From Rhizophagus irregularis (lineage: Eukaryota), in NCBI RefSeq assembly GCF_026210795.1, contig NC_089431.1, forward strand, positions 3,472,001-3,536,000: a stretch of DNA of 64,000 nt. Reading direction: 5' to 3'. Shown here one piece after another: positions 25,681 through 50,400 of this stretch. Position 1 is the stretch's first letter. Each line of letters opens with the position of its first letter. The notes below the pieces were generated by a model, which worked only from the letters and a program-made list of their open reading frames with translations, made no database searches and was not told the origin of the DNA. A program made the translations under genes and the position numbers.

Positions 25681-27733
25681 CAACATTACGACTCTTCAAT
25701 ATCTATTAGCAAAATACATACTAATTTCTGCTGCCGCGTAAATCGTGGAATTGGTTTGTTCAAACTAAATGGATTCAAAATTACGAGAAGTAATGTCATA
25801 AATGCAGGTTGTTTTGATTTTTTTGTTAGAGGGTTTCTTTTTATTATTATTATTTTATTATCAATATTTTATTTGTCAATAATATTTTATTTTTTTTATC
25901 AATATTTAATTTTTTTTATCTGTTTTATTTTTTTTATCTATATTTTATTTTTTATCTACATTTTATTTTTATCATTGTATTTCTTATCGATATTTTTTTA
26001 TCAATATTTTATTTTATTTTTTTTTAATCGATATTTCATTATCCACGTCTCGTCTATCACTTGTCTATGCTTAGCAAATCCGAAATTTCTCCTGTACATT
26101 ATAAAAATTTATTTTTTTAGAAAATTCATGTCAGAAATTTTTTTTCTAATTAAAAACCAGTAATAATTGTAATTCTACCAGTTCTATTAAGTCTGAGATT
26201 TACACAAACAATAAATTCTATTTGATATTCGTTCGTCTTTTGCATTCTGCACATTCAATTTTTTTCATTTTTCTTTTTCATTAATCGATACTTTTGTCGA
26301 ATCAAAACATTGAAATGGATCATGTAGTGAACTATTACTAATGTCCTTAAGATTGAGTAACTTAAAGCAGAATTAAAATAAACAAATGATACAAACATAA
26401 AAAAATTAAACATTTTTTTTTTTGACTTAGGCTGTAAGATCAATAGTCAAAGGATTCTTTAATAAATAATTTTTAATAAGAAATTTTATTATTCCATAAC
26501 ACCAACATTATGAGTTGAATTGTACTTCGCGGCCAGTGAGTTTGTAAGTTATAGGCAAAACATTATTGATTAAAAATAATTGTTAAGAGCATATATTATT
26601 TGAATAATTTGTTAAGAGTTTAATAATAAATTTAATTATTTACATTACCAAAAAAAAAAGAAAAAAATTTCTATATAGATTAACTAGTACAAGAAATAAA
26701 TTTACTAAACACTTCGCGTTGGTTCTAACCTTCATCATAGACTAATACAATGCCATTTGGCATTTGCATCGAATCGTGAAATTAATTCATCTGTTTTTCC
26801 GCGTACTAATCCAGTATGATCACAACCCTTTCCTTTATACAAAAGCTTCTTTCGAATTTTCTGCTTTTTCATTTTGATACAGTCGAGTAACCAACCCATC
26901 GTGATCGGTCATAGAAAGTGTAGTAATCGTGAACCAGTTTTAGCATCGTAATATTTCAAGGTTTGTTCATTGAAGAACTCTGAGCTTATAATTTGTAGAT
27001 TTAACAGTTAATTTCTTGATTTTCTCTAAAATGGATCAAGCTGTGGACGTTATGAACAAAACTTCACCTTCCAATTCATCCAATATCTCCGTCACAATTG
27101 AAAACTGAGTTCTACAGACAAGGTTTCTGACAACTTTATCTGCATTGGATGAAAAATGAAGACAATTAATTTTCGTTTTAATCAAAATCTTACATATTAC
27201 AGAAACAAATATTAAGCTTTTGCGTAAAGCACTATTGTGGAAATACGGTAATAAATTAAGTGATTTAATCGAATTAAGTATAATCATCTTGATCAATTAA
27301 CAGTTAATCGATAAAATGTTGGTTTCAATTAAAATCGAATAAATTTTGCCCGGTAATTTGTTACCATGATTGATCGATTAAACCTATCATGGTTAATTGA
27401 TTATTAAATTTTCATTGTTTCGTTTATTTTGTAGTTTATTACTGTATTGATACTGTACCAATTAATAAGATTCTTATCGATTGATTTTAATACAATAAAA
27501 ATCAATAAAATAATTTGATTCATCGATCAATTTATATATTTTTTTATTTCGAATAACACGATCGAATAAAAATCCAAAAATCGTTCAAATCAATTTAATC
27601 GATTTGATCATGACTATACGTGATCAATTAATCGATCATGATTTTTGAAACTATAAAATCCCTAAACAAAATAAAATAATAATAAAATAAATTGAAAACC
27701 TAAATTTTACAGCATTATAAAATACTATCTTTA

Positions 27734-29244
27734 TTATATTCTTTCTTCACCAGGCGTAGGAATAACATTCCGATTTCTATAATAACGTCTTATCAAAAAG
27801 AAAGTACATCCAATAATAATCAACAATCCAACAGAACCAAGCGCTGATGCTATTATAATGTTTTTATTAGAAGTAGATTGTTGTGGCGTCGGTGGTACGT
27901 AACCTGGTGGTACAAAGTCTTTGACAGCATTATAAATGTCTCTATTACTTATATCTATAATATCAATTGTATTTATCCTATTATGCGTTAGGTTTTGACC
28001 TAATTATTGTAACAAATGAAATTAAAATTTATATCGTATTATATGCTATAAGTAAAATATGATTATATAGACGCTCGTACCAAATGTAATAATCAAATAA
28101 TTCTCAAATACATGTGAGGTATGATAGATCCTAAATTGGTACAATTGACCAAAGAGCTGAGGAGTGGACCAAGTAAGTTCACCATTAACATACTCAAGAA
28201 CTGCAAATATGGGATCACTTTCATTGGACGCAGTCGCATTGTCATTACCATCAAAACCGCCATATACAAAAATTCGACCATCTGGTGCTTTTATATGAAT
28301 AATTAAAGTTAGAATATTAAACAAGACAAGTCAAGTCAAATAAGAGATGTTACCTATGGATGCCGAATGTCCCTGTCGCGGTGATGGAATTCTACCATTG
28401 GCATTCTAAAATGAAAAAGTTGAAATATTAATCTTATAAAAAAATTATTGATTTTAAATTTTCACAAATAAATAACTTACTCTTGTATACCATGTTGATA
28501 TTTTTGTATTATATACAAGGATCTAAAAAACAATTATATGTTTATGGAAAATATATATGCCGATATCAATTATATTGAATATATTACCTGATTCATTGGA
28601 ATGTTGTTTGTGCCATTACTACCACCAATATACGCAATTTCATCAGTATATAGCGTTACGGCAGCATAATTAAGAATTTTGTAAGGCGCAAAATCGGGAG
28701 AAATATACAAAATATTTCGAAATACGTCAAAAATATGCATGGTGCCATTGTCAAATATAAAAATAGTGTTTAAATTACTATCAGTAACTCCGACAATTTT
28801 GGATGTAGTTCCAACCGGCATACCATTTGGTGTTTCTGGTGTTTCTTCACTCCACTGTTTGAACTTTAGGGAGTATCCGTATATGAGCTCGCCTTTTGGA
28901 TCACCTCGAAAGCCTCCAAAAAGATAAATCATTTCACCTTCTTTACCTACTGCATATACAAGTGCATGTCCATTAGACTTTACGAGAACATTTGGATGCT
29001 CTTCGTAAGGCATATCAGTTGGTGATGACGTAGAAAATGGAACGGTTAAATCTAAAGAAAAAAAATCATCCGAACTAATATTATTATCAGTAGGACCTGT
29101 AATTCCGCCTCCAATATAAAGTTTATTATTTGCTATCGTTGAACCATGACAACAACGTATATTTGTTGATTGAGCGATTGTAAACGTTATAATTGTTACG
29201 CTAACAATTATGATTAATTTTATGACTAGTGTAGTAATTTTCAT
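27734..29244 (-). CDS. Kelch/galactose-oxidase-like beta-propeller type I membrane protein, copy A
   Basis: Signal peptide MKITTLVIKLIIIVSV.., Kelch motifs LYIGGG, IYLFGG, IAYIGG, IFVYGG, ITFG. Five exons with GT-AG introns. Pro/Ser stalk, TM helix, basic tail ending IPTPGEERI*. Confidence 0.88.
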
Positions 29245-30575
29245 ATCCCTAGTTAATTACTAATATTAAATAATGAAAAAAAAGAATTCACTTATTCAGT
29301 TTTAGAATTTTCTTCTTTCACATTTCGTCTGTTATAAACAATAATTTTATTAACTAAAAAGTGTTTGCCGACTGCATGCATTTACGTAAGCATGTGCATG
29401 TTAGCATTTTACTACGTTCTAAAAAGAAAAATCGTCATCAATGCCATTAAAATGTAAAGTTGGAAGCCATTGACAAAATTTAAATTCTATATTTGGAGTA
29501 AATTAAAAATAGTATAAAATACCCCATTGGAATTGAAAGTAAGATTAATCTAGTACTTATGGCGTTAATGTTTGTTGAATAGACGCTTAAATGTTTGTTA
29601 CTAATATTGTTCGATTTTCAATCTAAACTGCATGAATCAACAATCATGTGACGACTGTGACCAGTGTGACTGTGACGTTCTACGGCTATGAGCCTATGAC
29701 ATAGTATATATTTTTCCATGTTTAACGATAGCCGTTTATTTAAAATAGATTATCTTTTTATTTTAATGTAACGCAATTTAGGAGTAACTCGGCCTAAGTT
29801 TCGTTTCGAAACCTCAATTCTATCAATAAAAAAAATTTTTAAGATTGATTTATTTTCAATTAATTCAATTTTGGTAGAATCAATTCCATATTTATTTTCA
29901 ATTTTTAATACACGATTTATATGATTGATTATAAAATTTCATATGAATACGAAATTACTTGCTTAGTTTTGTACGTTAAAAATTATATTATCCTACAACA
30001 AAGTATTGAAAAAAAATATCTTGGAAATCCTTTATATAGCACTTTGAATAAAAAATTGATTTTTGAAAGAATTTTTGTATTTTTGATAGAATGTTAAGTT
30101 CAATTATTTAATCTTTATTATGGGAATTTATGGCGCTAAATGTATTAACCTTGTCAATACATTTTTAAATTAAGTAAGATAATGATGATGTACAACAGTA
30201 CAAATGTACCGTAACCCAGTACGGTATATTAGTATTTACATTATATTAATTGCTAACGCTTCTTAAAATAATCGTATTTGTTGAACATCTTGTCGGTTAT
30301 GCTTTCTAAAATATAATGTAAAATAAGAGACAAAGACATATACATTCTTAAACATTATTATCAAAATAAATTTTTATTCATAACTTAAATATTTACATAC
30401 CGTATGTTCAATAGATATTCATATTGCGATAATAAATAAAATACAAGAAAAATTATAAACACTACCACTTATTAAAAATTCATCGGGTATTAGAAAGGTA
30501 CACACAAAAGGATGTATTATACTTAGACGTGGAAAATACCAATTCTTTTTATTTTGTTTAACTGTATCAATAATA

Positions 30576-30811: not shown

Positions 30812-31774
30812 AACAAACTCAAGAACTTTCATTGGACTTAATTGTATTTTCATCACCATCAAAGCCACCATATACAAAAATCCGATAGTCTGGTGCTATT
30901 ATACAAATAATTATAGTTAGCATAAAAAGTATATGTATCGTCGATGTTACTTATTGATTGTCATGGAACTGGAATTGCATCATTAGCAGCCGTGACATTC
31001 TAAATTGAAAGTTGAAATATTAATCCTATGTATTGTTAGAATTCTCGTAGATAGTAATAATTAGCTTACCTTTATATCCCACTTTGATAATTTTGTATCA
31101 TATATAAGAATCTAAATAATTAAACGTTTATATACTATACTATATGGAAATATTTTGATATAACGATATTGAATATTTTACCTCGTTCGTAGGAATATTG
31201 TACTTATTATTATTTGGTGATTTACCGCCACAAATATACGCAATAACACCAGTATTTAGCGTAACGGTAGCATAATAATAAATGGCAAATTGGGAGAAAT
31301 AAATATACAAATATTTTTTTTTAATGCGTCATGAATGTACATGATGCTATTATCATAATATTATTGTTACTATTCGTAACTCCAACAACTTTAGTTGTAG
31401 ATTCGGAAGGCATCATAGCGCCATTCCTAACTTTAGAGAGTATCTGTATATACTATTACCTTTTGAAACTCCAAAGCAACCAAAAAAATATATACTTCCG
31501 CCTTCATTATCCATTGCCTATACAAGCGTGTGTGAATTGGACTTTTGCATGCATCTCATAAAAACATACAGTATTAAATGTATGGTGATTGCGTAGAAAA
31601 CGGAACGGTTAAATCTAAAGTAAAGGAACCTATGAGGCCACCTCCAATATAAAGTTTATTATTTGCTATCGTTGAACCATAACAACAACGTATACTTGTT
31701 GGTCGAGCGATTGTAAACGTTATTGTTACGTTAACAATTATGATTAATTTTATAACCAATGTAGTGATTTTCAT
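30812..31774 (-). pseudogene. Kelch membrane-protein paralog, copy B (deleted, frameshifted, 3'-truncated)
   Basis: Same start (MKITTLVIKLIII..RCCYGS..LYIGGG) and intron positions as copies A and C, but with internal deletions, an early stop at 31574 and no TM exon. Confidence 0.85.
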
Positions 31775-32034
31775 ACCTCTCGTTAATTACAAGTATTAAT
31801 GTAGTGAAAAAAAGAATTCATTTTAGAATTTCCTTATATCATTATGTTTTGTCTGTTATAAATAATTTTATTAAAAAGTGGTTATTAACCATTTACCGAC
31901 TGTATGTATGTACAGTATTTGCGAGCATTTTTACGAAGAAATATGATCAATACCATTGACAAATGGGCCTGAACTTAATATATTAAAAAATACATTTTTT
32001 TATGGTAATTCTAGTAACTCAATATACATATATA

Positions 32035-32186: not shown

Positions 32187-33460
32187 TATATATACGCACG
32201 AGATTGACCGAAAAAATGTATAATCAATCACCTACTACTATTAAAAATCACGATGTTCCCCATCTGTTAAATTCTCGCTCTATAGTTGGAGAAAAAAGAA
32301 AACTTCATTATCTGTTATATATATATATATGTACTGTATATCTGATATGTAAAATTAAAATAGTACGTATTCCGTTCGCATGAAAGTGAAAATAATTTAG
32401 TATTTATGGCGTCAATGTTTGTTGGACAGGACAGGCGCTTAATGTTGTTTACGAGTATTGTATGTTTGTTGCTAATATTTATTCGATTTTCTCGATCACC
32501 GTTACAGGTTACACAAACTGATGATTGATCGTTCTGATCGCCATAATAATTTTTATTTAGAAGTTTCGCATCTATATCTTTTGAAAAACCTGATCGACTG
32601 TTTGAAATACCCCAAAACTATATAAAATTTATTAAATACATGAAAATAATACACAATAAAAGAAGAAAACACTATTTTAAAATGCTTTGGCTAAAAATAT
32701 TTATAATTTTTTATTGATATCACAAAAGAAAACATATAATAACTAAGATCAAAGCAACCAATGTTCCAATTTGGATAAAAAACTTCGTCCATATAAAGCT
32801 AATATGAACAACACTAACTTTTCTTTCTTATGTATTGATCAGTGTATGTACCATAAAATTTGATCATATTTCGTAATTGCAATGAATGTAATAATAGTCG
32901 AGAATAAGAAATATTGAAAGTCGTCAAACTTGTCAAATATTCTATAAAATTATGACAATAATTAAACCCAAGTGATAAATGAAGTTATTGTTTATTATGG
33001 AATTTTTGCCGTAAGTAAATAAAATTTATAGAGCAGCTTGGGTTTATTGATCAATTAAAGAGATACTGAAGTGAATGGTTGGATTTCCAAATTAGCTAAG
33101 AAAATAAAAGTTTCTTTGGTATTGACGCAGATTTGTGAGACAATGAAATGAATATATTTATTTTTACTTCAAATTTGATCCAATATATTAAATCGATATA
33201 ACGGTTATTTACTTTGTTATAGATGATAAATTTTTTATTTAATAAAATAAATTAATTAAACTCTATTAATGGTTCTTAAATAGGATTATAATAAGTGAAT
33301 TTATATTTTTCGTTTTAATCAAAATCTTACAAATTGCAGAAAATAAATAAGCTTAATTTAACGCCAAGTCCCACCACCACCCGCCACATCAAAGGTTCTT
33401 TTATAAAATAACATGATCTTCAAAATCAAATGCTGATCATTTTGTTGACAAATTAACTAT

Positions 33461-33552: not shown

Positions 33553-34191
33553 AAATTGGATAATTTGTATTACTAACTGTTACTAATATCACATGAAAAC
33601 AGATCAAGATTATCTCTCCTTTTTACCTTTGCAGAACCACACAACCTGTATTGGCATCATTTGAAATAAAATTTAACCGTTTAGATATTTTTTTAATCGA
33701 TCTAAATAGAATTGTTTATAACTTTTGACTTTTGTGTTGGCATATTTAAATTTGTGTTAGTTATTAATCACAAATAAATAAGAGATCCCTTGAATTACAT
33801 TTACAGTTGACTTGTTTATTAAATAAAATGATCTTAATGAATAAAATCAGGATAATAAATATTATAAAATGTTGATAATTTGATAGATCAAGTTACCATG
33901 ATTGTTCGATCAAACCATCTGGTTAATTAATTAATGAAAAAAATGTGGTTTTGAAAAAAAATAACTACCAGAGTTACTTTATGCATTGTTTCGTCTATTC
34001 TGCATTTTATGTCTATAGTATTCGAAAAATTAATTAATTATTTAATAATATGCGTTAATCGATCAATGATTTTTAAATTCCCTAAATAAAAAAAATATGG
34101 GCTTAAATTAATTACTTTGTTAGAGTGAAAAATCCAAATTTATCATTAATTCCAATAACATTTAAAATAATACCTCTATTATTAAATTCTT

Positions 34192-35732
34192 TTAACTAGT
34201 AGGAATAACATCTCGATATTTATAATGTCGATAACGTCTTATCAAAAAGAAAGTACATCCAACAACAACCAAACCCACAACGGAACCAATTACTGTTGCT
34301 ATTATGATGTTATTAAGAGATGGTGATGATGGTGGTGATGATGATGATGGTACAGGTGGTACATAACCCTGTGGTGTAAAGTCTGTGACAAATTTATAAA
34401 TATCTCTATTACTTATATCAATCAGATCGATTGTACTCATTCTACCATTCGTTTTATTTTGCCCTAATTATTATAAATAGAAAATAATATTATAACTTAA
34501 TATATTATACATACTGTAAATTTTATACGATTATAGAAACTCGTACCAAATGTAACGATCAAATAATTCTCGAATACATGTGAGGTATGGAAGATCCTAA
34601 AATTACCCGCCAGACCGATGAGTTCAGGAATGGACCACACAAATTCGTTACTAACAAGCTCAAGAACCGCAAATATGGGATAACTTCCATTAAGCTCAAT
34701 TGCATTGTCATTACCATCATAGCCACCATATACAAAAATCCGACCATCTGGTGCTATTATATAAATACTTATTGTCAGCATAAAAGTATATGTATCGTCA
34801 AATAAGTTATATTAGAGATGTTACCTATGGATGCTGAATGACCTTGTCGTGGAACTGGAATTGCGCCATGAGCAACCGTGGCATTCTAAAATGAAAAGTT
34901 GAAAGATTAATCCTATGTAATGTTAGAATTCTCGAATTCTCGTAGATAATAATTAGCCTACCTTTATATCCCATTTTGATAAATATGTATCATATGTAAG
35001 AATCTAGAATAATTATACATTTAATTTACTATATGATAATATTTAATATCGTGATATTGAATATTTTACCTCATTCATAGGAATATTGGACATATTACCA
35101 TTTGGTGCTTTACTGCCACCAATATACGCAATTACACCAGTATTTAGCATAACGGTAGCATAATAATAAATTTTGTAAGGCGCCGAATCGAGAGAAATAT
35201 GCAGAGATTTTTTTAATGCGTCATAAATGTACATGGTGCTATTATCAAATATATAAATATTATTATTACTACTATCCTTAACTCCAATAACTCTAGTTGT
35301 AGATTCAGACGGCATTATAACGCCATTTACTGGTGTTACTTCAGTCCAACCATCTAACTTTATAGAGTATCTGTATATACTATTGCCTCCTGAAACTCTA
35401 AAGCCGCCAAAAAAATATATACTTCCGCCTTCATTATCCATTGCAAATACAAGCGTGTGTGAATTGGACTTTATAGGAACCTTTGTATGCACTTCATAAG
35501 GCACATCAAGTGGTGATGGCGTAGAAAACGGAATAGTTAAATCTAATGAAAAGAAATCATCAGAAGGAAGAGCAATGGTAGAAGGACCTGTGAGGCCACC
35601 TCCAATATAAAGTTTATTATTTGCTATCGTTGAACCATGACAACAACGTAGATTTGTTGGTCGAGCGATTGTAAACGTTATAATTGTTACGTTAACAATT
35701 ATTAATTTTATAATGAATGTAATAATTTTCAT
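34192..35732 (-). CDS. Kelch beta-propeller type I membrane protein, copy C
   Basis: Same five-exon structure. ORFs 35043-35750, 34497-34781 and 34192-34440. TM IIIATVIGSVVGLVVVGCTFFLI followed by RRYR. Confidence 0.88.
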
Positions 35733-36679
35733 AACTCTTATTAATTGCAAAGTATTAAATAATGAGAAATAATTTAATAACTGATGTAGACAATTTTCAT
35801 ACCTCTAGTTAAATTACAAGTATTAAATAATAAAAAAATAAAGAGTTAATTTTAGAATTTTCTTATCATTATGTTTCACCTGTTATAAACAATAATTTCA
35901 TCATAAATTGCTTATTGGTCACTTACCGATTGTATTGCATTTGATAAACATTTTAATTACCTCCTAATAATAAAAAAATATGATATATGCCAAATAAATC
36001 TTCATTATACAGTATATATAATATATAAAAGCGCTTAATGTTTGTTACTTAATATTGTATGCTTATTAACTATTATTGTTCATGAATTAACAATCATGTG
36101 ACGACTGTGACATTACACACCGGCTATGTGCGATAGCCGTTCCACTACATTATTTAAAATGGATCCCCTAGTGTAACGCAATTCCGACCTGCATCATGAC
36201 TTTAACAAAGAAAGTTCATTGAGATTGACTTTATATTCGATTTTCGATTAATTCAATTTTGGTAGAATCGATTCCAATTACTAGAACCATTTTTGTTATA
36301 CGATTATGATTGATTGATTATAAAATTTCAAAATTACTATTTTAGGTTTGTACATTGAAAAATTAAAGATTATATTATTCTACATAAAAGTGTTGAAAAA
36401 ATATTCTTGGAATTTTTATACAATACTTTGTATAATAAAATTAATTTTTGTATCTTATCTAATCTTTATTATGACACAAAATGTATTAGTCTTATCAATA
36501 CGTTACAATCATTTATAGAAAGATAATAAATGATGTACAGCATTTTACTAAATATACATTATATTAATATTTAACATTTCAAGATATCTTATCTGCTGTT
36601 ACGCTATGTAGAGTAAGAGACAAAGACAGATACATTTTAAGTATTATTAACAAATGAACTCATTATTTACATGCCATAT

Positions 36680-39505: not shown

Positions 39506-39764
39506 CGCTTTTTTTGAATTTGTTAAACGTCACGTAGTAAACTGGCCGATGGAAGTATTAAGGTACACAGTTTAGAATTTATTTATACAGGTAATCTAAA
39601 CGTTACAAATTTTTTTATAAAATTAATTAATAAAGAAATTTTAACGATTATGATTTTTAAATTCCCTAAATAAACAAACTAATATGGATTAAAATTATTT
39701 TGTTAGAGTGAAAAATCTAATTTCATCACTAATACTAACAACATTTAAAGTACTATTAAATTCT

Positions 39765-41299
39765 TTAACCACTAGGTGTAGGAATAACATTTCGATATCG
39801 ACAACGTCTTATCAAAAAGAAAGTAAATCCAATAACAATCAAACCTCCAACGGAACCAAGTACTGATGCTATTATGATGTTTATACTAGGAGATGGAGAT
39901 GGAGATGGTGGCGGTGATGGTGGCGGTGATGGTGGTGGTGCACCCGGTGGTATAAAGTTTGTGACAAATTTATAAGCAGATTTATTACTTATATCTATCA
40001 GATCGATTGTATTCACCCTATGTTGCGTTTTATTTCGTCCTAATTATTATAGGTAGCAGACAAAATTATAATTTAACATACTATTACATACTGTAAGTTG
40101 CATATGATTATAGATACTCGTACCAAATGTGATGATCAAATAATCCCCGAATACATGTGAGGTGTGAAAGATCCTAAATTTACTCGGCAGACCAATGAGA
40201 TCAGGAGTGGACCATACAAATTTGTCATTAGTAAACTCAAGAACTGCAAATGAGGGATAACTTCCATTGGACTCCTTTGCATTTTCATCACCATCATAGC
40301 CTCCATACATAAAAATTCGACCATCTGGTGCTTTTATATAGTTAATTTAAGTTAGCATATAAACAAAATAAAACAAGATAAGTAAGGGAAATGTTACCTA
40401 TTGATGCTGAATGTCCCTGTCGTGGTTCTGGAATAATACCACTGGCATACTAAATGAAAAGCTGAATATTAATAAAATTATGTATTATTAAATCTTCACA
40501 AATAAATAGCTTACCTTTATATCCCATTTTGATAAATACGTATCATATGTAAGAATCTAAAATAATTATACGTTTAAATTACTATATGATAAATATTTTG
40601 ATATCATGATATTGAATATTTTACCTCATTCATAGGAATATTGTACAGTTTATTTGGTGCTTTACCGCCACCAATATACGCAATTACACCAGTTTTTAGC
40701 ATAGCAGTAGCATAATAATAAATTTGATAAGGCGCCAAATTGGGAGAAATATGCAAAAATTTTTCTGTTGCGTTATAAATGTACATGATACTATTGTCAA
40801 ATATATAAATAGTATTATTGTTACGATCCGTAACGCCAACGATTTTAGTTGTAGATCTAGTCGGCATTTTAATGCCATTTGCTGGTATTGCTTCAGCCCA
40901 ACCATCATACTTTAGGGAGTATCTGTATATACCATTGCCTTCTGAATTCTGGGGATTTCTAAAGCCGCCAAAAAAATATATACTTCCACCTTCATTATCT
41001 ATTGCATATACAAGCGTGTTTGCATCTGACTTTACGATAATATTTGGATGCACTTTATAAGGCATATTAAATGGGGATGACGTATTAAATTGAACGGTTA
41101 AGTCTAAAGAAAAGAAATCATCAGTATAAACAGTTTCATTATCTTCGGGACCTATAGTGCCGCCTCCAATATAAAGTCTATTATTTGCTATCGTTGAACC
41201 ATGACAACAACGTATATTTGTTGGTTGAGCGATTGTAAACGTTATAAGTGTTACGTTAATAATTATGGTTAATTTTATAACTAGTGTAGTAATTTTCAT
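39765..41299 (-). CDS. Kelch beta-propeller type I membrane protein, copy D
   Basis: Same exon structure. ORFs 40604-41299, 40047-40310 and 39765-40016. PPPSPPPSPPPSPSPSPS stalk + TM. Confidence 0.88.
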
Positions 41300-41908
41300 G
41301 ACTCGTTAATTACAAATATAAAATAATGAAAAACAAAAATTCTCTTCCATAATGTTTGTTTGTTATAAATAATAATTTTGTGTTTATTTGGCCATTTGCC
41401 GATTGCATGCATTTTTACTACCAAAAAATATGAACAATGCCATAACAGCATAAAAAATGTAAAGTTGTAAGACATTGATGAAACTTAATTCTAAGTTAGG
41501 AAGAATATCCCGATTTCATGAAAGTAAAGATAATTTAACAGGTGCTACTAATATTTGATCTACATTTCTTGGCATTTTATATTACCAAGGGGTAGAGGGG
41601 CCAACTTGTTTGTTGTGTTACCTTGTATCACAATTTTGTACTGTCCCCCCCTGAAATTATACCTATCGAAAAAAAAAAATGTCGAGCCTAAAACTTTTAA
41701 CATACAACGTTTTTAAAAGCCGATGTTCAAAAGTAGATTAGTATAGTTGAAGACTATTTACTGCCAAAATTTTACAGTTATTTGTGCATTATTGGCTTTC
41801 TCGTTAGTTTAAGAAGCTTTAATATATTATTCATGTATAATCTTAGTAACTTTGACAATAAACTCCACTTTATTTAAAATTTATTTATATTTATTATTTA
41901 TGTTTTCG

Positions 41909-44900
41909 TTATTCCATAAAAATAACCCTTCTTTTAAGAGCTTCTTCGATAAATGGTGTGGAATTTTTTAAGTTGTAAATAATTATAGGCACCAATTTTT
42001 GTTTTCTTTTATATGGCGTTGAAATTCCTAAATGCCCAAATTATCCACAATAATTCCGAAACTAAAAAAAATTTAGAAAATGAGTCTTCTGCTCCTTCAA
42101 GTTGTGCCCATACTCGAAGTTGTTCTAAAGCGTGTAGGTAAATTAGTCTTTTTCATAAGGGGCTTTTTATTTTCTGTTGTTAGGTTGTTTGAGCGCATCG
42201 TTTTCAGGCTTTCTCTTAAACTTGCCGTACCTTTTTCCGGAATGTAATTATTAACGTCTCTCCATGTTTTTTGTCGACTTTTCATATAGATAGTGACGCA
42301 TCTCTCATAAATAAACCCAAATTCTTCATCTTCTAATTCAACACCAGTAATATTATTTGATTTCAATGTTGTAATAAACATTTGATTTAGAGATAAGTTA
42401 ACAAGAAGACTATTTTTCACATAACACAGGATATTTGGTCCTAATTCATTATGTTTCTCGAACAGTTCAATTATTAAAGATTCCAAATAATACATGAACT
42501 GAGTAAATTTGGGTCTAGGTATAATGTTAGTGGTCTGTGATTTTGTTTCTGGCATATATTCAACCTTTTCTTCACAGTGAGCTTTAAGTAAAGTATTCAT
42601 AACTTGAAATTTTGGATGGGAATTCATTACGTGATCTCTTTTGAGCAATTTGAAGAGTACCCAACCAATAATATAAGAAATTTTAGTGATTCTGCCTGGT
42701 TCAAAGTAATAACTTTAGGAATCAAGGTAGGGTCTGCATGTTCTTGTATGTTTTTATTTTTATGAAAGTTTCCTTAAATGTTTCTTCTATCACTTCGTGG
42801 ATCAGGAAGTAGGCAACTAGTCTTTGTGTAGCAGAATGATTTTGGGAAATAATTTCTTGAAATTCTGAGAACCAAATGCCGGAACATAGGTAGTTATTCA
42901 GGCTAATCTCCAAGTGAGAAACCCACACAGTCATCCAAAGACTTCCTTTTTTATTGGGAATTGATTTCAAAGCAATACCTTTAATGTTATTTTTCCATTT
43001 TTCTAATAGAGAAATAATTCTATCATCGTAAAGACATAAATCAAAGAGCTGCTGACGTTCTTTTTGAAGTAATAAAATTGTTTGATTTTGTTGGTTAACT
43101 TCATTACTGAAAGATGATGGTGGAGTTTCAATTTTTCCCATAAACAGATCATTAATAAGAAGATTTTCAAAGATTTGCCGTGTAAAGGGAGATATGCTGG
43201 ATAATCGGGTAAGATGACTCGATAAACTAGGGATATTTTTATCCTTTGATATCTTTGACGTTTTTTTTCTGTAATCACTTTTCAAAACAATTATTAATAA
43301 TTTTATTTATTTAAATATAAAAAAGAATGATTTAAACAGATTTAATTTATAAAAATACCTACTATCAAGTAAGACAATTTAGTTCCATTCCGGCATGATT
43401 TGATTTTCCATAGTTAAGGCTTTTGATTTCAGTAGTTATCTTTGCGGTAACCTGAAATTTGTTTAATGCATGTCCATATCCTTTTAATGTTTGCGTGGAG
43501 GAATCTCCTCCAAGCTGTCGAATCATGCCAAATAGTCCTTCTAACATATCCTGTGATATCCTGCGTGGTTCAATTGTTGAATTTGGATACAATACAAAAA
43601 TCTCCTCAACCATTCCCAAAAAACCTTGAATAGATAAGAGTACGTCAAATTGACATTGTGGGGAGATCCAGTTTATTTTGCTAGCTTTTTGCTTATCTAT
43701 AATCACAAAACCAATCACGTATTTCTTTTAGAGTTTGAATATGAGAATCATTAAGACCTTCCAATGGTTTTTTGCTATGAAACATTTGCCGGTAAAGGTA
43801 CTATGCATAATTGATAAATTCCTAATAAACATTTATAACATTATTATACATTAAATTTTATAACTGATACTTTAATATTAAATATTTTTACTTACTCTTG
43901 TTTTAGCTGATATTTCTTTCAGTTTATCAATTGTTCTCATTGCAACTATAATATCCTTTGATAAAGTCTGTTCAGTGAGATCAACTCTCATTTTGCTCCA
44001 AGATGTAAGCCAAATATGACGCTTTGTGAGTCTTGTAATTTTGCTGTTGAATTTTGTACAGTATAATCATAAACACCTTGAATATGATGCCAACTAACTT
44101 CATTTCCATCTATCATAATTTCTCTAATACTTTGATTTCAGTTTTCTCTAATATGACTTTTTGAAAGATTGTTTGAAGTTTTTTAAAAACATGCATAGGA
44201 TCACTAATGAAAAACCATGGTGTACTGGTAATTGGGTTGATTATTTTATAATTTGTCCAATGTGTTTGGGTATCATAAAGAGGCCTAATGTATATATTTT
44301 GAGATTTATTTACCATGTTCCATTTTTCATTATTAGACAAAATTGTAACAATAAAAGTTTGTGTTTCAGAACCAATATTCGTGATAATAGCTGTATGCCA
44401 TTTATTATCCTTTGGACTTTTAAATTCACAGAAATCATTAATATTCCAATTTTGTTTAGTGGGCATTGGTTGTCTCAATGAGTTACAATTAACTTGAAAT
44501 TCATTAGAAAAGGATGGGTCCAATAAACACACTGTGAATTTACTATGATCAAGGTTAGTTGATGATATGATTCTTGCTTGTTCATAATTGTTTTTACCAA
44601 TATTAACTTCAACAATATCTCCTACAGACCAGAATGAAGCCCACCAGTCAAAACTTTTGATATGATTCCTATTTTCTCCAGCTCCATTACAAACAGATCC
44701 ATAAGTATGTATACAAATACATTCAAGATTAGTCGCGAGATGAAAAAGAATTTTATTAATTTTATGTGCAGTAAGAGTATTAATTCCATAATATGCTATA
44801 GGATATGCAAAGTTACAAGTAGCTGAATGCCAAACAATTTGATGTACTTATGTTGTTAGATTCCGATCATGATCCTTTAAATTAGGTAAATTACTATTAT

Positions 44901-46832
44901 TGTCTGTTTGCAATTCCTTTTCGCATTGCATTGCAAATGATTGTAATTCTTCTTTTTCATTTTCAAAATCCAAATATCCAACATAACAATTATCTTGCTG
45001 ACTCCAAAGTAAACCTATTATTAATATCAAATTCTAATTAATTCTTAAAACAATTTTTTAATAAATATTTATTAGTGTAAATAATGAACCTTTTTGTATT
45101 TTAAATGAATCATGTGAGAAAAATCCAATTCGGCCATAATCTCCAATATTTTCTATAGATATTTTTTCCAGAATATGACAAGCAGTTTTATCTTGCCATC
45201 CTAAATGTTGTTGACTTTCATTTATATAGGTTTTTATTAAAGATATTGAAGGTAATCACATAATGCTTTTCATTGCTTCGTAAGCAGCATGACCTGCACG
45301 GCTATATACAGAAATAGCCCATCGCATAAACCTAAAGAATTATAGTGAATCATTAATAAATTTTATTTTATTTAACCAACTTTTTTATTAGTAGATATAC
45401 TTACATTATGTGATATCTTATTCCATTTGCTTTTCCACTTTGAACTCTAATTAATTCCTGGAAAATTGGATTAAGAGAAGAAAGATCAATTTTATTTTTA
45501 ACAACCTTTCTAGATATATCTTGAGCAATTTGATACAGCTCTTCCAATACTTTTTCTCCTTCTTCTTCCACTTTTTGTTTAATTCGATTTTTCAAGGTAT
45601 GTATAGTTTGATTCTGATTTGCAATTTTCTTTAAAAGTTGCATTAACGTTAATTGCTTATATACATTTTTTATTTAATATCTATTCTATAAATAAATACC
45701 TTTCTTTGAAATTGAACTTTTTTAGATAAAATTTCCTGGGAAGCATGCGCAACTTTAACTGGTAAATCATTCAAAAGATTCTGATTTTTGATTTTTATTA
45801 ACGTATCTTTCAATTTTTTACACTTTTCACATATATTTATTTCAGCTACTAACAAATAACAGTCCAATCTTCTATAGGCTTCATGAGGTTGATTTTGATT
45901 CTCTAGAATTGCAAAGGGTTCATGAACATTATTGGAATTTTTTTGATTTCTCACAAGATGAGTTCCTCGAAACTGAACTACTTTTTCAAATCCTAACTAT
46001 AAAAAAAACTTTAAATCATAATTAATTAAAAATGAAAAAGTAATTAATCACTACCTTCAGTCTTTTGACCCATGCATACTTTTGCTACAGATATGTAACA
46101 AATTGTTTTTTCTATTTCTGAAAGGGTTCGTTCAGTTGCAATTCCCATTTCTATTTCATTTATTTTTTTTACACGTTTTTCTAATATATTTAGTTCGTAA
46201 GAGATTAAGTTTTCTTGCCACTTAATAATTAAATACTTTTTTATTTTCTTGTTCTCTTCCAAAAAATATAACACTAATTCCATCAACATTTTCTCTTATC
46301 AAAACTCTTGTTTCGATGTTTTAAATGATTTTATCAATAATGTAACTTCTGCTATATTTGCAGATTTATTATTTTTCCAATATGGAGTTTGCCTTGTTCT
46401 TAATAATGAAGCTAAATTAGAACCAGAAGAGTTTGGTTCAAAAAAAATTGTAGCAAGTGCTAAACGTTCACCACTAAATATTTTTTTAATTTTGAGAAAT
46501 TTGATCCAAGAAGCAAAAGTATCAAATTTTTCATTAGTTTTTTTATCAAAAATATAAAAAGTTTTGTCTTGCTTATCGTAAATTAAAAGTCCTTCTCTAT
46601 TTTGCAAATATTCAAGATATTTTGATAAAAATTAATATTTAAGTCAGCTTTATTTAAGCTCTTCATTTAACTAAAGTCAAATTATGCTATAAAATTAAAA
46701 ACAAATGTAAAACAATCAACTTTATTTTAAAAAAATATAGATACTTTCTCACAAATATTTAAGCAATATCAATCAATTAATGTTTCCATACCCGTTAAAT
46801 AACACTCTACTTAGTTCACTTAAGACTGTCAT
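41909..46832 (-). mobile_element. P-element superfamily (THAP9-like) transposase gene, multi-intron, inactivated
   Basis: Ordered motifs: RYH.MFMRWAISVY..AYE..LPS (HTH), FFSHDSFKIQKGL (D1, 45109-45111), YPIAYY, GSVC[N]GAGEN (D2 mutated, 44686-44688), FFISDPMHVFKKL (DxxH), WSKMRVDL, ISQDMLEGLFGMIRQLGG (E, ~43540), and a C-terminal YIIGWV. Several stops and frameshifts. TIRs not resolved; start codon tentative. Confidence 0.85.
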
Positions 46833-48378
46833 TTTAAAATTAATAATATAAATTCTAAAAAGAAAGTAAAAAAAAAAGCACAATAAAAATCATTTACAGC
46901 TCCATAAAAGCATTATATGCTTAAGCTTTTCAAAAATTTTTTATTTTAATTATTTAATGAATTTTTAAAACATTATTTAATGTGAAAAAAAGAAAAAGAA
47001 AAGAGGAAGAGAGAGGTAAACAATAAACAAAGCCGATCACGTCACACAAAAGTGACGGGGAGATGTCGTTTACACACGGCTATGTTGTTCATCACATATA
47101 CAGGTATATTTTAGTTTATAATTTAATTTGTTCCCCAATTGTAAAGAAAAGTGTCAAATAATAATTGTTACAAGACTTACCAAATCTTTTTGAGATTCAT
47201 AATAAGGATCTTTATAACCTATTAAATAAATTTAATAACTTGTAAAAATAAGTACTAGTAAGGGTGATTTGATGTAGGTATTTAACTTGTATACTTTGAA
47301 TGCTTCGTTCTAATAACAAAAAAGTTACAGTGTACATGAAAATTAAATACATATAATTAATTGAAGTTTGATAAATAGATTTTTTACGCATTTATGGTAC
47401 AAGTGCGAAAGCTTCTTTCTATAAATTATACAATATAAGCTTAAAATTACTTAATATTAAGCTTTAGCATCATAGTCACTAGTTACTTTTCTAAAATTAG
47501 TGCTAGAATAATACTATGACAACTTATAGAAACATTCTTGAACTACTGTATTGACGGAGATTTATAAGACAATGAAATGGATGAACTTTAAATTTAATTA
47601 ATTAAAAATCCGTCTATTTACTTTGTTATTGATGATTCAACTTAATAAAATTATTTAAACGCTATTAACGCTTCTTAAATATGATTGATTATAAGAGAAT
47701 TTCTATAGAAGCAAACGATTGTTTAAATATTCGTATATTTCTGAAAGTATTTTATTTTTATATCGTTGAATAAATAAATACATTACTACCCAAAAATCTT
47801 AACGAAAATAATAAGCTTTTGTATGAAGCGCCAATGTGATATCTTATGTAAAATTTATTCAAATAAAATTATTTAATGAATTCTTAATAATCGAATCAAG
47901 TATTATCGATCTAATCAGTTAATCGATTAAAAATGTTTGCTACAAATAAATTTTTGACTGATAATTTGATCGATCAAGTTACCATGATTGATCTGATCGA
48001 TCAAATCATCATAATTTATTGATTCTATATAAATACCAAAATTATTTTATTCATTGTTTCTTCTATTTACATTTTGTATTCTGTAATAATATTAAAATAA
48101 TAAAATTTCTTTTATAATTAATTTTTAATATATAATAAAAATCAATAAAAATCGCTTATTAATCGATTAATTTATTATTCGAATAATATATTCGAAAAGG
48201 CATCTTTGATTAAAAATTGATTAAATTAATTGATTTAATCGATTTTTGGTCAATCTTAGCTATGCGGGATCAATTAATTAATCGATCATGATTTTTAAAT
48301 TCCCTAAATAAACGTTTGTTAGAATGAAAAATCAAATTATATAATTAATTCTGTCAGCATTATAAAGTACTATCTCTA

Positions 48379-49929
48379 TTAAATTCTTTCACCACTAGAA
48401 GGTGTAGGAATAACGTTTCGATATCGATAACGTCGTATAAAATAGTAAGTACATCCAATAATAATCAAAGATCCAACGGAAACAACTACTGATGCTATTA
48501 TTATGCTGTTTTTAGATGATGATGATGATGATGGTGATGGTGATGGTGTCGATGATACATAACCTGGTGGTACAAAGTCTGTGATAACTTTATAATTATC
48601 TCTATTACTTATATCTATAATATCAATTGTATTTAACCTATTATGTGTTAAATTTCGTCCTAATTATTGTAAATAATATAATTAAGTATTAAATTATATA
48701 TAAATAATAGATAATAACTAGAAACACACACGTACCAAACGAAATAATCAAATTATTTCCAAATATATGTGAGCTATGATAGATCCTAAATTGGTATAAT
48801 TGACCAAAGAGTTGAGGACTAGACCACGCAAATTCGCCATTATTATACTCAAGAACTGCAAATACGGGATAACTTCCAGTGGACTCAATTGCATTTTCAT
48901 CACCATCAAAGCCACCATATATAAAAATTCGACCATCTGGTGCTTTTATATGAATAATTTAAGTTAGAATATTAAACAAGATAAAACAAGACAAGTAAAG
49001 GAGATGTTACCTATGGACGCTGAATGCCCCTTTCGCGGTGATGGAACCACACCATCAGAAACTTTAGCAGTCTAAAATGAAAAGCTGATATTAGTAAAAT
49101 TATGGATTATTAAAACTTCACAAATAAATAACCTACCTTTGTAGACCATGTTGATATTTTTGTATTATATAATAGAATCTAAAAAATAATTATACGTTTA
49201 TATGTAATATATATAAAAAAATACTTGATATCATTATATTGAATATTTTACCTGATCCATAGGAATGTTGTTCTGATTATCATTATTATCTCTTTTACCA
49301 CCACCAATATACGCAATTTCATCAGTACTCAGCATAACAGTGGCATAATAATAAATTTGGTAAGGCGCCAAATCGGGAGCGATATACAAAGATTTTTGAA
49401 GTGCGTCATAAACGTACATCGTGGCATTGTCAAATACATAAATATTGTTTAAACTACTATCCGTAACTCCAACAATTTTGGTTGTAGATTCAACCGGCAT
49501 ATTAACGCCATTTGTTGGTATTACTTCACTCCAAGCATTTAACTCTAAGGAGTATCCATAAATGGCACTGCCTTTTGGTTCACTTCTAAAGCCTCCAAAA
49601 AGAAAAATCATTCCGCCATTTTTAGTTACTGCATATACAAGTGTATGTCCATTACACTTTACGAGAACATTTGGATTCTCTTTATAAGGCATATCAGTTG
49701 GTGATAACGTAGAAAACGAAACGGTTAAATCTAAAGAAAAGAAATCATCAGTAAAAATATCTTCACCAGCACCTGTGAGACCACCTCCAATATAAAGTTT
49801 ATTATCTGCTATTGCTGAACCATGACAACAACGTATATCTGTTGGTTGAGCGATTGTAAACGTTATAATTGTTATGATAACAATTATGATTAATTTTGTA
49901 ACTAATATAATAATTTTCATCATTCTCAT
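48379..49929 (-). CDS. Kelch beta-propeller type I membrane protein, copy E
   Basis: ORF 49234-49929 plus four downstream exons. Ser/Pro stalk, TM, tail ending VIPTPSSGERI*. Confidence 0.88.
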
Positions 49930-50400
49930 ATATATTATATATAAATAATAAAAAAAAACATTTAGTTTTAGAATTTTCTTCTACCCTATTTGTTTGTTAT
50001 AAATAATAAATTTTATTAGAAAGCCATTTTACTGTATGTATTAGGTATGTTAACATTTTACTACCTTCAACTCTATTACTAATATAACGGGTCATTGGAT
50101 TTGAAGTTTAGAGAATAAATACAGAAAAAGGAAATTACTTAAACATACCGAAAAGGAAATTAATATCAATAGTATAAAACATACATAAAAGGAAATTATT
50201 ATCAATAACTTTAAACATGATTCGGTACATTTTTTCTTTCAAAAAAAGAACTTTAACTTTATGTATCTGGATTACCTCCGATTGAAAATAATCAAGGTTT
50301 ATGGCGTCAATGTTTGTTGAACAGGCGTTTAATGTTTGTACACAATCTAGTGAGATTCAGTTGATCGGATCTAAGCCGAATACAATATGTAATCCATCAG

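What the first reader, a model, noticed from the sequence alone, without database searches (positions are those of the whole stretch)
44281..44631. Tandem Tudor/Agenet-like domains inserted inside the catalytic core of a P-element transposase
Seen: about 160 in-frame codons with no intron separate the second catalytic motif (GSVC[N]GAGEN, ~44687) from NP..WFFISDPMH (~44201). They hold two related ~55-aa units: WSVGDIVEVNIGKNNYEQARIISSTNLDHSKFTVCLLDPSFSNEFQVNCNSLRQ and WNINDFCEFKSPKDNKWHTAIITNIGSETQTFIVTILSNNEKWNMVNKSQNIYIRP. Known: in P/THAP9 transposases this interval is only a few tens of residues, and W-x-VGD-x-VE..W-x-x-A-x-I..F-x-V..(L/I)RP is the Tudor/Agenet SH3-like barrel pattern; such domains often read methylated Lys/Arg. 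Inference: a fungal P lineage may have acquired a histone-mark reader next to its active site, which could steer target choice as chromodomains do in chromovirus integrases. I know of no description of this, but cannot check.
Basis: partly seen in the sequence, partly recalled or inferred. Interest (0 to 1): 0.88.

Follow-up and report, generated by a model that had tools for sequence, protein, structure and literature searches.

The report
Transposase with built-in tandem Tudor domains
This is a broken copy of a jumping-gene family found across root-symbiotic (arbuscular mycorrhizal) fungi whose cutting enzyme carries a conserved 125-residue insert, predicted to fold as two Tudor/Agenet barrels, in the middle of its catalytic domain; the insert likely helps the enzyme hold on to chromatin, but it lacks the usual pocket for reading methyl marks.

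Summary
Observation confirmed. The insert is in frame: 162 residues lie between the second catalytic position and DxxH. That spacing is 36 in Drosophila P transposase and 29-58 in 33 insert-free relatives. The window matches Rhizophagus irregularis. The insert marks one family seen in eight Glomeromycotina genera; all 72 proteins hit by the insert profile also carry the transposase core. It is under purifying selection (omega 0.25-0.30, core 0.05-0.07). It is predicted to fold as two barrels (pLDDT 82-89) whose best matches are plant tandem Agenet H3K9me2 readers (Z 10.6), FXR1/FMRP and UHRF1.

New here: no THAP domain; the N-terminus is predicted RAMA-like (MPND, Z 8.6). Relatives have 37-bp terminal inverted repeats. 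The window copy is dead and appears to be transcribed antisense. No sense RNA covered the insert, so splicing is untested directly.

Verdict: an apparently undescribed architecture of a P-superfamily transposase, most likely a cage-independent chromatin tether; targeting is not shown.

The parts
41586..41610 (.). Degenerate 3' terminal inverted repeat (CAAGGGG..GGGGCCAACT; relatives have CTAGGGG..GGGGCCAACT)
   Evidence: L018 aligns to the window down to 41597; no matching 5' repeat found in the window
41912..43282 (-). C-terminal part of the transposase (several exons, with frameshifts)
   Evidence: tblastn of P0024 and P0005
43368..43727 (-). RNase H C-terminal part with catalytic E (SQDMLEGLFG; aligns to E531 of 6P5A)
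   Evidence: (PF21789, E 1.5e-4, below cut-off)
43708..44188 (-). GTP-binding-like insertion domain, broken here by frameshifts and stops
   Evidence: PF21788 above cut-off in relatives
44191..44238 (-). NP..WFFISDPMH: strand beta5 and DxxH signature
44281..44448 (-). Tudor/Agenet-like unit 2 (WNIND...IRP); cage positions S, H, I
44449..44472 (-). Proline-rich linker (PMPTKQN); M and K nearly invariant in the family
44473..44631 (-). Tudor/Agenet-like unit 1 (WSVGD...LRQP); cage positions I, E, L
44632..45330 (-). RNase H N-terminal part with first catalytic D (SHDSF) and second catalytic position (D replaced by N at 44688); stop codons at 45258 and 44850
45404..45993 (-). Cysteine-containing and coiled-coil/HTH-like region (two exons)
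   Evidence: domain labels are inference from sequence pattern and the P transposase layout in PMC7776569
46053..46604 (-). N-terminal exon: predicted RAMA-like domain (about 46604-46390), then an alpha/beta domain of unclear family; stop at 46301; the start of the gene is lost or replaced
   Evidence: model built on relative P0076, 70% identical to the window segment
41699..46351 (+). Likely spliced antisense transcript across the dead element: seven plus-strand GT..AG skips, two of them inside the insert (44228-44336, 44554-44627)
   Evidence: contigs of runs X3, X4, X8 (RNA status is the tool's guess); splice ends checked

Best explanation
The stretch is part of a dead copy of a Glomeromycotina P-superfamily DNA transposon whose transposase carries a conserved, selected insert predicted to fold as a tandem Tudor/Agenet module, which likely acts as a chromatin tether without a methyl-lysine cage. 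Shown: in-frame insert between the second catalytic D and DxxH, family-wide, under purifying selection, inside elements with terminal inverted repeats. Predicted: two face-to-face barrels, and a RAMA-like N-terminal domain in place of THAP. Inferred: a reader-type module was captured once, in the loop before strand beta5, where it would hang off the catalytic domain without disturbing the DDE site. With the RAMA-like domain (non-specific dsDNA and histone binding in MPND) it would hold the transpososome on nucleosomal DNA, unmodified histone tails or a host chromatin protein during target capture.
For: Spacing 158-169 in 15 of 21 family rows against 29-58 in 33 of 33 non-family rows. Of 44 metagenome loci, 24 span both motifs: 23 have the two-unit length, 1 has one unit, none has the short spacing. 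Omega 0.25 and 0.30 for the units against 0.07 and 0.05 for the flanking core (15 sequences, MG model); pairwise NG86 medians 0.52 and 0.57 against 0.16 and 0.14, with 82 of 87 and 70 of 74 usable pairs below 1. AlphaFold pLDDT 82-89 over residues 71-190. Foldseek ranks 1-10 are all ADCP1/AGDP tandem Agenet chains (E 2e-6 to 1.8e-5). VIA: 7yta Z 10.6, rmsd 3.5, 120 aligned; UHRF1 9.8; FXR1 9.6. Insert-bearing proteins form one side of a branch with SH-aLRT 100 (quick tree). RAMA-like match: 7ydw Z 8.6, rmsd 2.7, 86 of 96 residues; CcrM Z 7.5. MPND RAMA binds dsDNA regardless of 6mA, and binds histones (PMC9963953, passages). In AGDP1 the first Agenet unit binds unmethylated H3K4 through acidic residues (PMC6208443, passages), so cage-free units can bind tails.
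Against: No binding or insertion-site data. A shared fold shows no function: KOW, PWWP and other SH3-like folds score Z 7-9 for single units. The insert evolves 3-5 times faster than the core, and one-unit variants exist (Entrophospora, L032), so unit 2 can be lost. Some gene models skip part or all of it (P0024 spacing 58, P0016 86). The RNase H part of the model was low confidence (residues 1-24 and 40-69 under pLDDT 50), so its position relative to the active site was not measured. The RAMA call rests on a predicted structure only: Foldseek E 0.11, no Pfam hit.
Confidence: 0.5

Rival explanations
1. The module is a true methyl-lysine or methyl-arginine reader (for example of H3K9me2) with a reduced or atypical cage, and steers insertions as chromodomains do in chromoviruses.
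For: Top fold matches are H3K9me2 readers. In unit 1, cage position 1 is aromatic in 33 of 50 sequences and position 2 is Y or H in 34 of 50; unit 2 position 2 is Y or H in 49 of 50; an extra W in unit 2 is kept in 49 of 50.
Against: ADCP1 needs Y301, W306 and F323 in the second unit, and double mutants lose binding (PMC6318295, passages). Family unit 2 has S/N, Y/H and I there: 0 of 50 sequences have more than one F/W/Y. Unit 1 has all three in 1 of 50; the window copy has I, E, L. Net charge is about -1, while AGDP1 uses a large acidic surface. The cage mapping comes from a weak HMM alignment to SPF30 (E 0.45), the unit1-unit2 alignment and recalled motif positions, not from a residue-level superposition.
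Confidence: 0.2
2. The barrels bind the element's own end DNA or partner subunits, making up for the lost THAP domain; they have nothing to do with target choice.
For: No THAP hit in any family member scanned, while two outgroup proteins have it. SH3-like barrels of KOW/NusG and DNA-binding Tudor type appear among the matches. Unit 1 is slightly basic (median +1.5).
Against: The best matches cover both units in the tandem reader arrangement. The terminal repeats are well conserved between subfamilies while the insert surface varies.
Confidence: 0.17
3. The insert is a tolerated passenger or an optional, alternatively spliced cassette, kept only because it must fold.
For: Omega is 3-5 times that of the core. 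A GT donor sits right at the start of the insert and gene predictors use it (P0011, P0016, P0024). One-unit variants exist.
Against: None of 24 DNA loci spanning both motifs lacks an insert. It is kept across eight genera, with nearly invariant residues that include charged and linker positions (K, E, N, R, M).
Confidence: 0.13

Closest known systems
Drosophila P element transposase (PDB 6P5A) and the P superfamily (THAP9, Galileo)
   Same: Split RNase H with DDE, DxxH and GTP-binding-type insertion domain (PF21787, PF21788, PF21789); terminal inverted repeats; flank consensus resembling the Galileo GTANTAC site (PMC4168063, passages).
   Different: About 125 extra residues between the second D and beta5, a site distinct from the usual beta5-alpha4 insertion point; no THAP; RAMA-like N-terminus; F443, D444 and N447 of the GTP pocket not kept in P0021; target duplication not demonstrated.
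Plant tandem Agenet readers ADCP1/AGDP1/AGDP3; FMRP/FXR Agenet pairs; UHRF1 tandem Tudor
   Same: Predicted fold, tandem arrangement and proline-rich linker.
   Different: 13-20% identity; cage of the second unit not conserved; not acidic; embedded in a transposase.
Reader-bearing transposons: chromovirus integrases, Tudor-tailed Gypsy-10_Ec32 of Ectocarpus, hAT-chromodomain fusions
   Same: A royal-family domain fused to a DDE enzyme.
   Different: Gypsy-10_Ec32 has a C-terminal Tudor and was called the first reported TE with one (PMC12477816, passages); chromodomain and PHD fusions are surveyed in bioRxiv 10.1101/2021.11.30.470311 (passages). Here the module is tandem, lies inside the catalytic fold and is in a P-type DNA transposase.
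RAMA domain of MPND and CcrM (PDB 7YDT, 7YDW, 6PBD)
   Same: Predicted fold of the N-terminal 100 residues.
   Different: No sequence-level hit. The passage listing eukaryotic RAMA fusions names Tudor, chromo and PHD partners but no transposase and no fungi (PMC4738411, passages).

Membership tests
P superfamily transposon | RNase H fold with D, D, E catalytic residues | tested here: met
   PF21787 above cut-off in 19 of 21 relatives scanned; E aligns to E531 and QD to D528 of 6P5A; the window copy has N for the second D
P superfamily transposon | DxxH signature after the second D | tested here: met
   DPTH/DPMH aligned to D339 of 6P5A; signature as stated in PMC9587614 (passages)
P superfamily transposon | GTP-binding insertion domain between beta5 and alpha4 | tested here: met
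   PF21788 above cut-off in 13 of 21 relatives. Of 8 GTP contacts listed in PMC7776569, K385, V401, S409 and D528 are kept, K400 is R, and F443, D444, N447 are replaced (read). GTP binding itself is not tested
P superfamily transposon | N-terminal THAP domain | tested here: not met
   No THAP hit in family proteins; the N-terminal model matches RAMA instead. THAP was also found in only 2 of the non-family P-like proteins scanned, so it is not universal in this group
P superfamily transposon | Terminal inverted repeats | tested here: met
   37-bp, 97% complementary arms in L002 and L010, 5.3-5.5 kb apart; both ends in L018; only the 3' repeat in the window
P superfamily transposon | 7-8 bp target site duplication | tested here: inconclusive
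   No 7-8 bp duplication in L002 or L018; only CTAG repeats if the ends are drawn 4 bases inward. The 7 bases outside 10 ends form a roughly self-palindromic consensus (R-T-A-W-W-A-Y), as a 7-bp Galileo-like site would; the pattern was chosen after seeing the data and the flanks may be chimeric
Tudor/Agenet (royal family) fold | SH3-like barrel of four to five strands with a short helix | tested here: met
   On a predicted model. Pfam Agenet 28.2 bits (cut-off 27) in P0196; no Agenet or Tudor hit for the window sequence
Methyl-lysine-reading tandem Agenet (ADCP1/AGDP1 type) | Three-residue aromatic cage in the second unit | tested here: not met
   0 of 50 sequences with more than one F/W/Y at the three mapped positions; mapping by sequence alignment
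Methyl-lysine-reading tandem Agenet (ADCP1/AGDP1 type) | Acidic peptide-binding surface | tested here: inconclusive
   Median net charge -1 over the insert; the surface potential could not be computed
Methyl-lysine-reading tandem Agenet (ADCP1/AGDP1 type) | Binding to methylated histone peptide | not testable with these tools
   needs peptide array or ITC
RAMA domain | Fold of the MPND/CcrM RAMA domain | tested here: met
   7ydw Z 8.6 and 7ydt Z 8.4 (rmsd 2.7, 85-86 aligned), 6pbd Z 7.5; these RAMA chains are the only top-50 rows that map to model residues 13-114 alone
RAMA domain | Sequence match to a RAMA profile | tested here: inconclusive
   No Pfam hit at E up to 10 for 13 N-terminal sequences; RAMA sequences are poorly conserved (PMC9963953)
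Kolobok | TTAA target duplication with RR..YY ends | tested here: not met
   No TTAA at the ends; the proteins match P-type Pfam models; definition from PMC9587614

The most novel reading that the evidence does not exclude
An old lineage of P-type transposons in arbuscular mycorrhizal fungi has swapped THAP for a RAMA domain and grafted a tandem Agenet module into its catalytic fold, and uses the two to read host chromatin state (histone-tail state, possibly 6mA) and choose between the gene-rich and repeat-rich genome compartments. It would be a cut-and-paste transposase with two built-in epigenetic sensors.
Probability: 0.25. Interest if true: 0.85.

Novelty: new variant of a known kind. Interest (0 to 1): 0.62.

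Why it matters
P elements were counted as nearly absent from fungi (11 copies, 'single occurrences', PMC5751038), yet this family occurs in eight genera of arbuscular mycorrhizal fungi. It shows a second place where the RNase H fold of a DDE transposase tolerates a whole domain, and a possible replacement for THAP. If the module tethers the enzyme to chromatin, it offers a testable cause for where transposons land in these two-compartment genomes, and a natural graft site for retargeting P-type transposases.

Tried and rejected
No genome is held for the window, so copy number and empty sites could not be counted; six different OCT59 locus tags of R. irregularis among the hits point to several copies per genome. 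The run search listed no holder on record as RNA. Two polyA raw-read runs, about a quarter read, gave zero depth over 44196-44851: no evidence for or against sense splicing. X1 contigs run through introns and look like DNA. No empty-site joint among the rows shown for four other runs (more rows were not shown). The X8 skip 44448-44643 was rejected as a splice because its ends do not give GT..AG on the minus strand.

ESM Atlas: three calls unanswered and one not held (15, 24, 31, 34); two answered with no usable hit (57, 91). Sequence searches of the PDB did not reach ADCP1/AGDP, so there is no residue-level alignment to them; haemagglutinin hits are coiled-coil noise. No stand-alone host donor of the insert was found (proteins of 232-2000 residues, word-seeded, so weak evidence). 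No 5' terminal repeat was found in the window. The careful tree did not finish; the quick tree is quoted. For dN/dS, 5 loci with stops and 1 duplicate were dropped, and L010 as a near-duplicate in the pairwise test. Two papers asked for by recalled PMC id were not held. No complex was predicted: methylated peptides cannot be modelled and no partner is known.

Searches for a prior description and term look-ups in PMC5751038, PMC11952901, PMC8647823 and bioRxiv 10.1101/2025.06.16.659975 found none. Repbase, subscription journals and Supplementary Table 6 of bioRxiv 10.1101/2021.11.30.470311 could not be seen and may bear on novelty. UniRef and JGI already auto-label some members 'Agenet domain'.

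Full report
Observation. The minus-strand frame 44113-44847 is open for 244 codons and holds the second catalytic motif, both units and the DxxH motif. The distance from the second catalytic position (44688) to DxxH (44202) is 162 residues. The two units are homologous to each other (HHalign 85.6, E 5.6e-6; controls under 1). A named R. irregularis protein is 100% identical over 83% of the query.

The enzyme. Relatives match the three P-type Pfam models. P0021 aligns to Drosophila P transposase 6P5A from strand beta5 through E531 (E 0.01). In 6P5A, D303 and the DxxH aspartate D339 are 36 apart (PMC7776569, passages). A profile search of 1.84 billion representatives gave insert-free P-like transposases; in 33 of them the spacing is 29-58, against 158-169 in 15 of 21 family rows and 91-144 in the other 6. 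The insert is therefore about 125 residues. It lies before beta5, whereas the known insertion domain lies after beta5. The 21 insert-bearing rows sit on one side of a long branch with support 100 in a quick tree; one origin is not ruled out, and rooting was by midpoint only.

Distribution. The insert profile found 72 proteins at E up to 10 among 7025 candidates. All 72 also match the transposase core on at least one side, 61 on both. Named sources are Rhizophagus, Glomus, Diversispora, Acaulospora, Gigaspora, Dentiscutata, Entrophospora, Paraglomus and, by a partial match, Ambispora; that these span the orders of Glomeromycotina is recalled. Entrophospora proteins and locus L032 have one unit only; they nest among two-unit members, so loss is more likely than an ancestral single unit.

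Coding or intron. Of 44 metagenome loci, 24 span both motifs: 23 have the two-unit length (two with a one-base frameshift) and one has a single unit; 17 were seen to be stop-free; the other 20 loci end early or lack a motif match. Omega is 0.25 and 0.30 for the units and 0.07 and 0.05 for the flanking core. So the insert was translated and selected, less strictly than the core. RNA could not settle splicing: two polyA runs had no reads over the insert. Contigs from three other runs skip seven plus-strand GT..AG segments, two of them inside the insert. This is most simply a spliced antisense RNA over the dead copy and says nothing on the sense transcript. Some gene models skip the insert at a GT next to its start, so optional splicing is not excluded.

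Fold. AlphaFold with 50 sequences gave pLDDT 82-89 for residues 71-190, two barrels of four long strands with a short helix and closing strand; the RNase H fragments were poor. Foldseek's first ten hits are plant tandem Agenet chains. VIA ranks AGDP3 (Z 10.6, rmsd 3.5, 120 aligned), UHRF1 (9.8), AGDP3 AGD1-4 (9.7), FXR1 (9.6) and FMRP (9.3). One relative passes the Pfam Agenet cut-off, and databases already auto-label a few members as Agenet proteins.

Cage. ADCP1 binds H3K9me2 with Y301, W306 and F323 of the second unit on an acidic surface (PMC6318295 and PMC6208443, passages). I mapped the three positions with the HMM alignment to the SPF30 Tudor (its cage residues are recalled) and the unit-to-unit alignment. 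Among 50 unique two-unit sequences, unit 2 has S/N, Y/H and I, never more than one F/W/Y. Unit 1 has F/I, H/Y/E and Q/L; 12 sequences have two aromatics and one has three. The window copy has none in either unit apart from H. Median net charge is -1. A classical methyl-lysine reader is thus unlikely, though the mapping is by sequence and a partial pocket in unit 1 of one subfamily remains possible.

Rest of the element. No THAP was found. A model of the N-terminal 237 residues of relative P0076 (pLDDT about 90 over 21-80) matches the RAMA domain of MPND (Z 8.4-8.6, rmsd 2.7) and of CcrM (Z 7.5); Foldseek alone is weak (E 0.11, probability 0.96). This exon lies inside repeat-bounded elements. 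MPND RAMA binds dsDNA without sequence or 6mA preference in the structural study, though an earlier pull-down reported 6mA preference (PMC9963953, passages). L002, L010 and L018 are 5.4-5.6 kb elements with terminal inverted repeats starting CTAGGGG. No 7-8 bp duplication is visible in the two independent contigs with both ends. The outer seven bases of ten ends look like a palindromic Galileo-type site, so a 7-bp duplication hidden by chimeric assembly is my preferred reading; a CTAG duplication is the alternative. The window copy keeps only the 3' repeat (41586). It has N for the second D, stops at 46301, 45258 and 44850, and frameshifts, and it sits between tandem paralogous Kelch-like genes.

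Mechanism. Most likely (0.5) the insert is a cage-independent tether that, with the RAMA-like domain, holds the transpososome on chromatin during target capture. By RNase H topology (established knowledge, not measured here) the loop before beta5 lies at the sheet edge away from the catalytic residues, which would explain why a 125-residue graft is tolerated. Rivals: atypical methyl reader (0.2), end-DNA or subunit binding that replaces THAP (0.17), passenger or optional cassette (0.13).

Novelty. I found no description in the searches listed under Tried and rejected. A 2025 paper calls a C-terminal Tudor in a Gypsy element the first TE with one (PMC12477816, passages). Earlier notes of this scan report C-terminal Spindlin-type Tudors on other transposases (unchecked), so reader capture is a recurring theme. 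The internal, tandem position in a P-type enzyme and the RAMA-for-THAP swap are what is new. Papers were seen as search listings, abstract starts and passages only; none was read whole and no supplement was seen. Verdict: new variant of a known kind, interest 0.62.

Noticed in passing
window 46053-46604 (-); model of P0076: N-terminal RAMA-like domain in place of THAP, followed by an alpha/beta domain (residues 120-222) matching Med17, frataxin and RWD-like folds at Z 6-9 with no clear family.
   Followed up: partly
window 41699-46351 (+): Spliced antisense RNA across the dead transposase, seen in contigs of three runs from three studies; it begins near the 3' repeat, divergent from the Kelch-like gene that ends at 41305. 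Could feed silencing; not tested.
   Followed up: partly
window 32500-32850; L002:303-380, L008:336-468, L009:876-1074, L024:3432-3493: A short stretch similar to both the 5' and 3' subterminal regions of subfamily-B elements, without coding sequence: likely a decayed non-autonomous copy of the same family.
   Followed up: no
window 27266-29352, 30824-31878, 34032-35772, 39621-41379, 47888-50023: At least five tandem paralogous genes (69-80% DNA identity) with Kelch-like repeats and a C-terminal transmembrane segment; the element sits in this array.
   Followed up: no
L002, L010, L018 ends; ten flanks: Ends begin CTAGGGG rather than the CA recalled for P elements, and no 7-8 bp duplication is visible; the end chemistry may differ from canonical P.
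   Followed up: partly
P0021 against 6P5A residues 443-447: Three of eight GTP-contact residues (F443, D444, N447) are not kept, so the family may not depend on GTP.
   Followed up: no
P0082, P0087, P0090, P0091, P0093, P0098, P0105, P0107, P0115: A well-supported clade of unnamed P-like transposases with C2H2 zinc fingers before the HTH region and no THAP hit in those scanned; its position next to the insert family is not supported in the tree.
   Followed up: no
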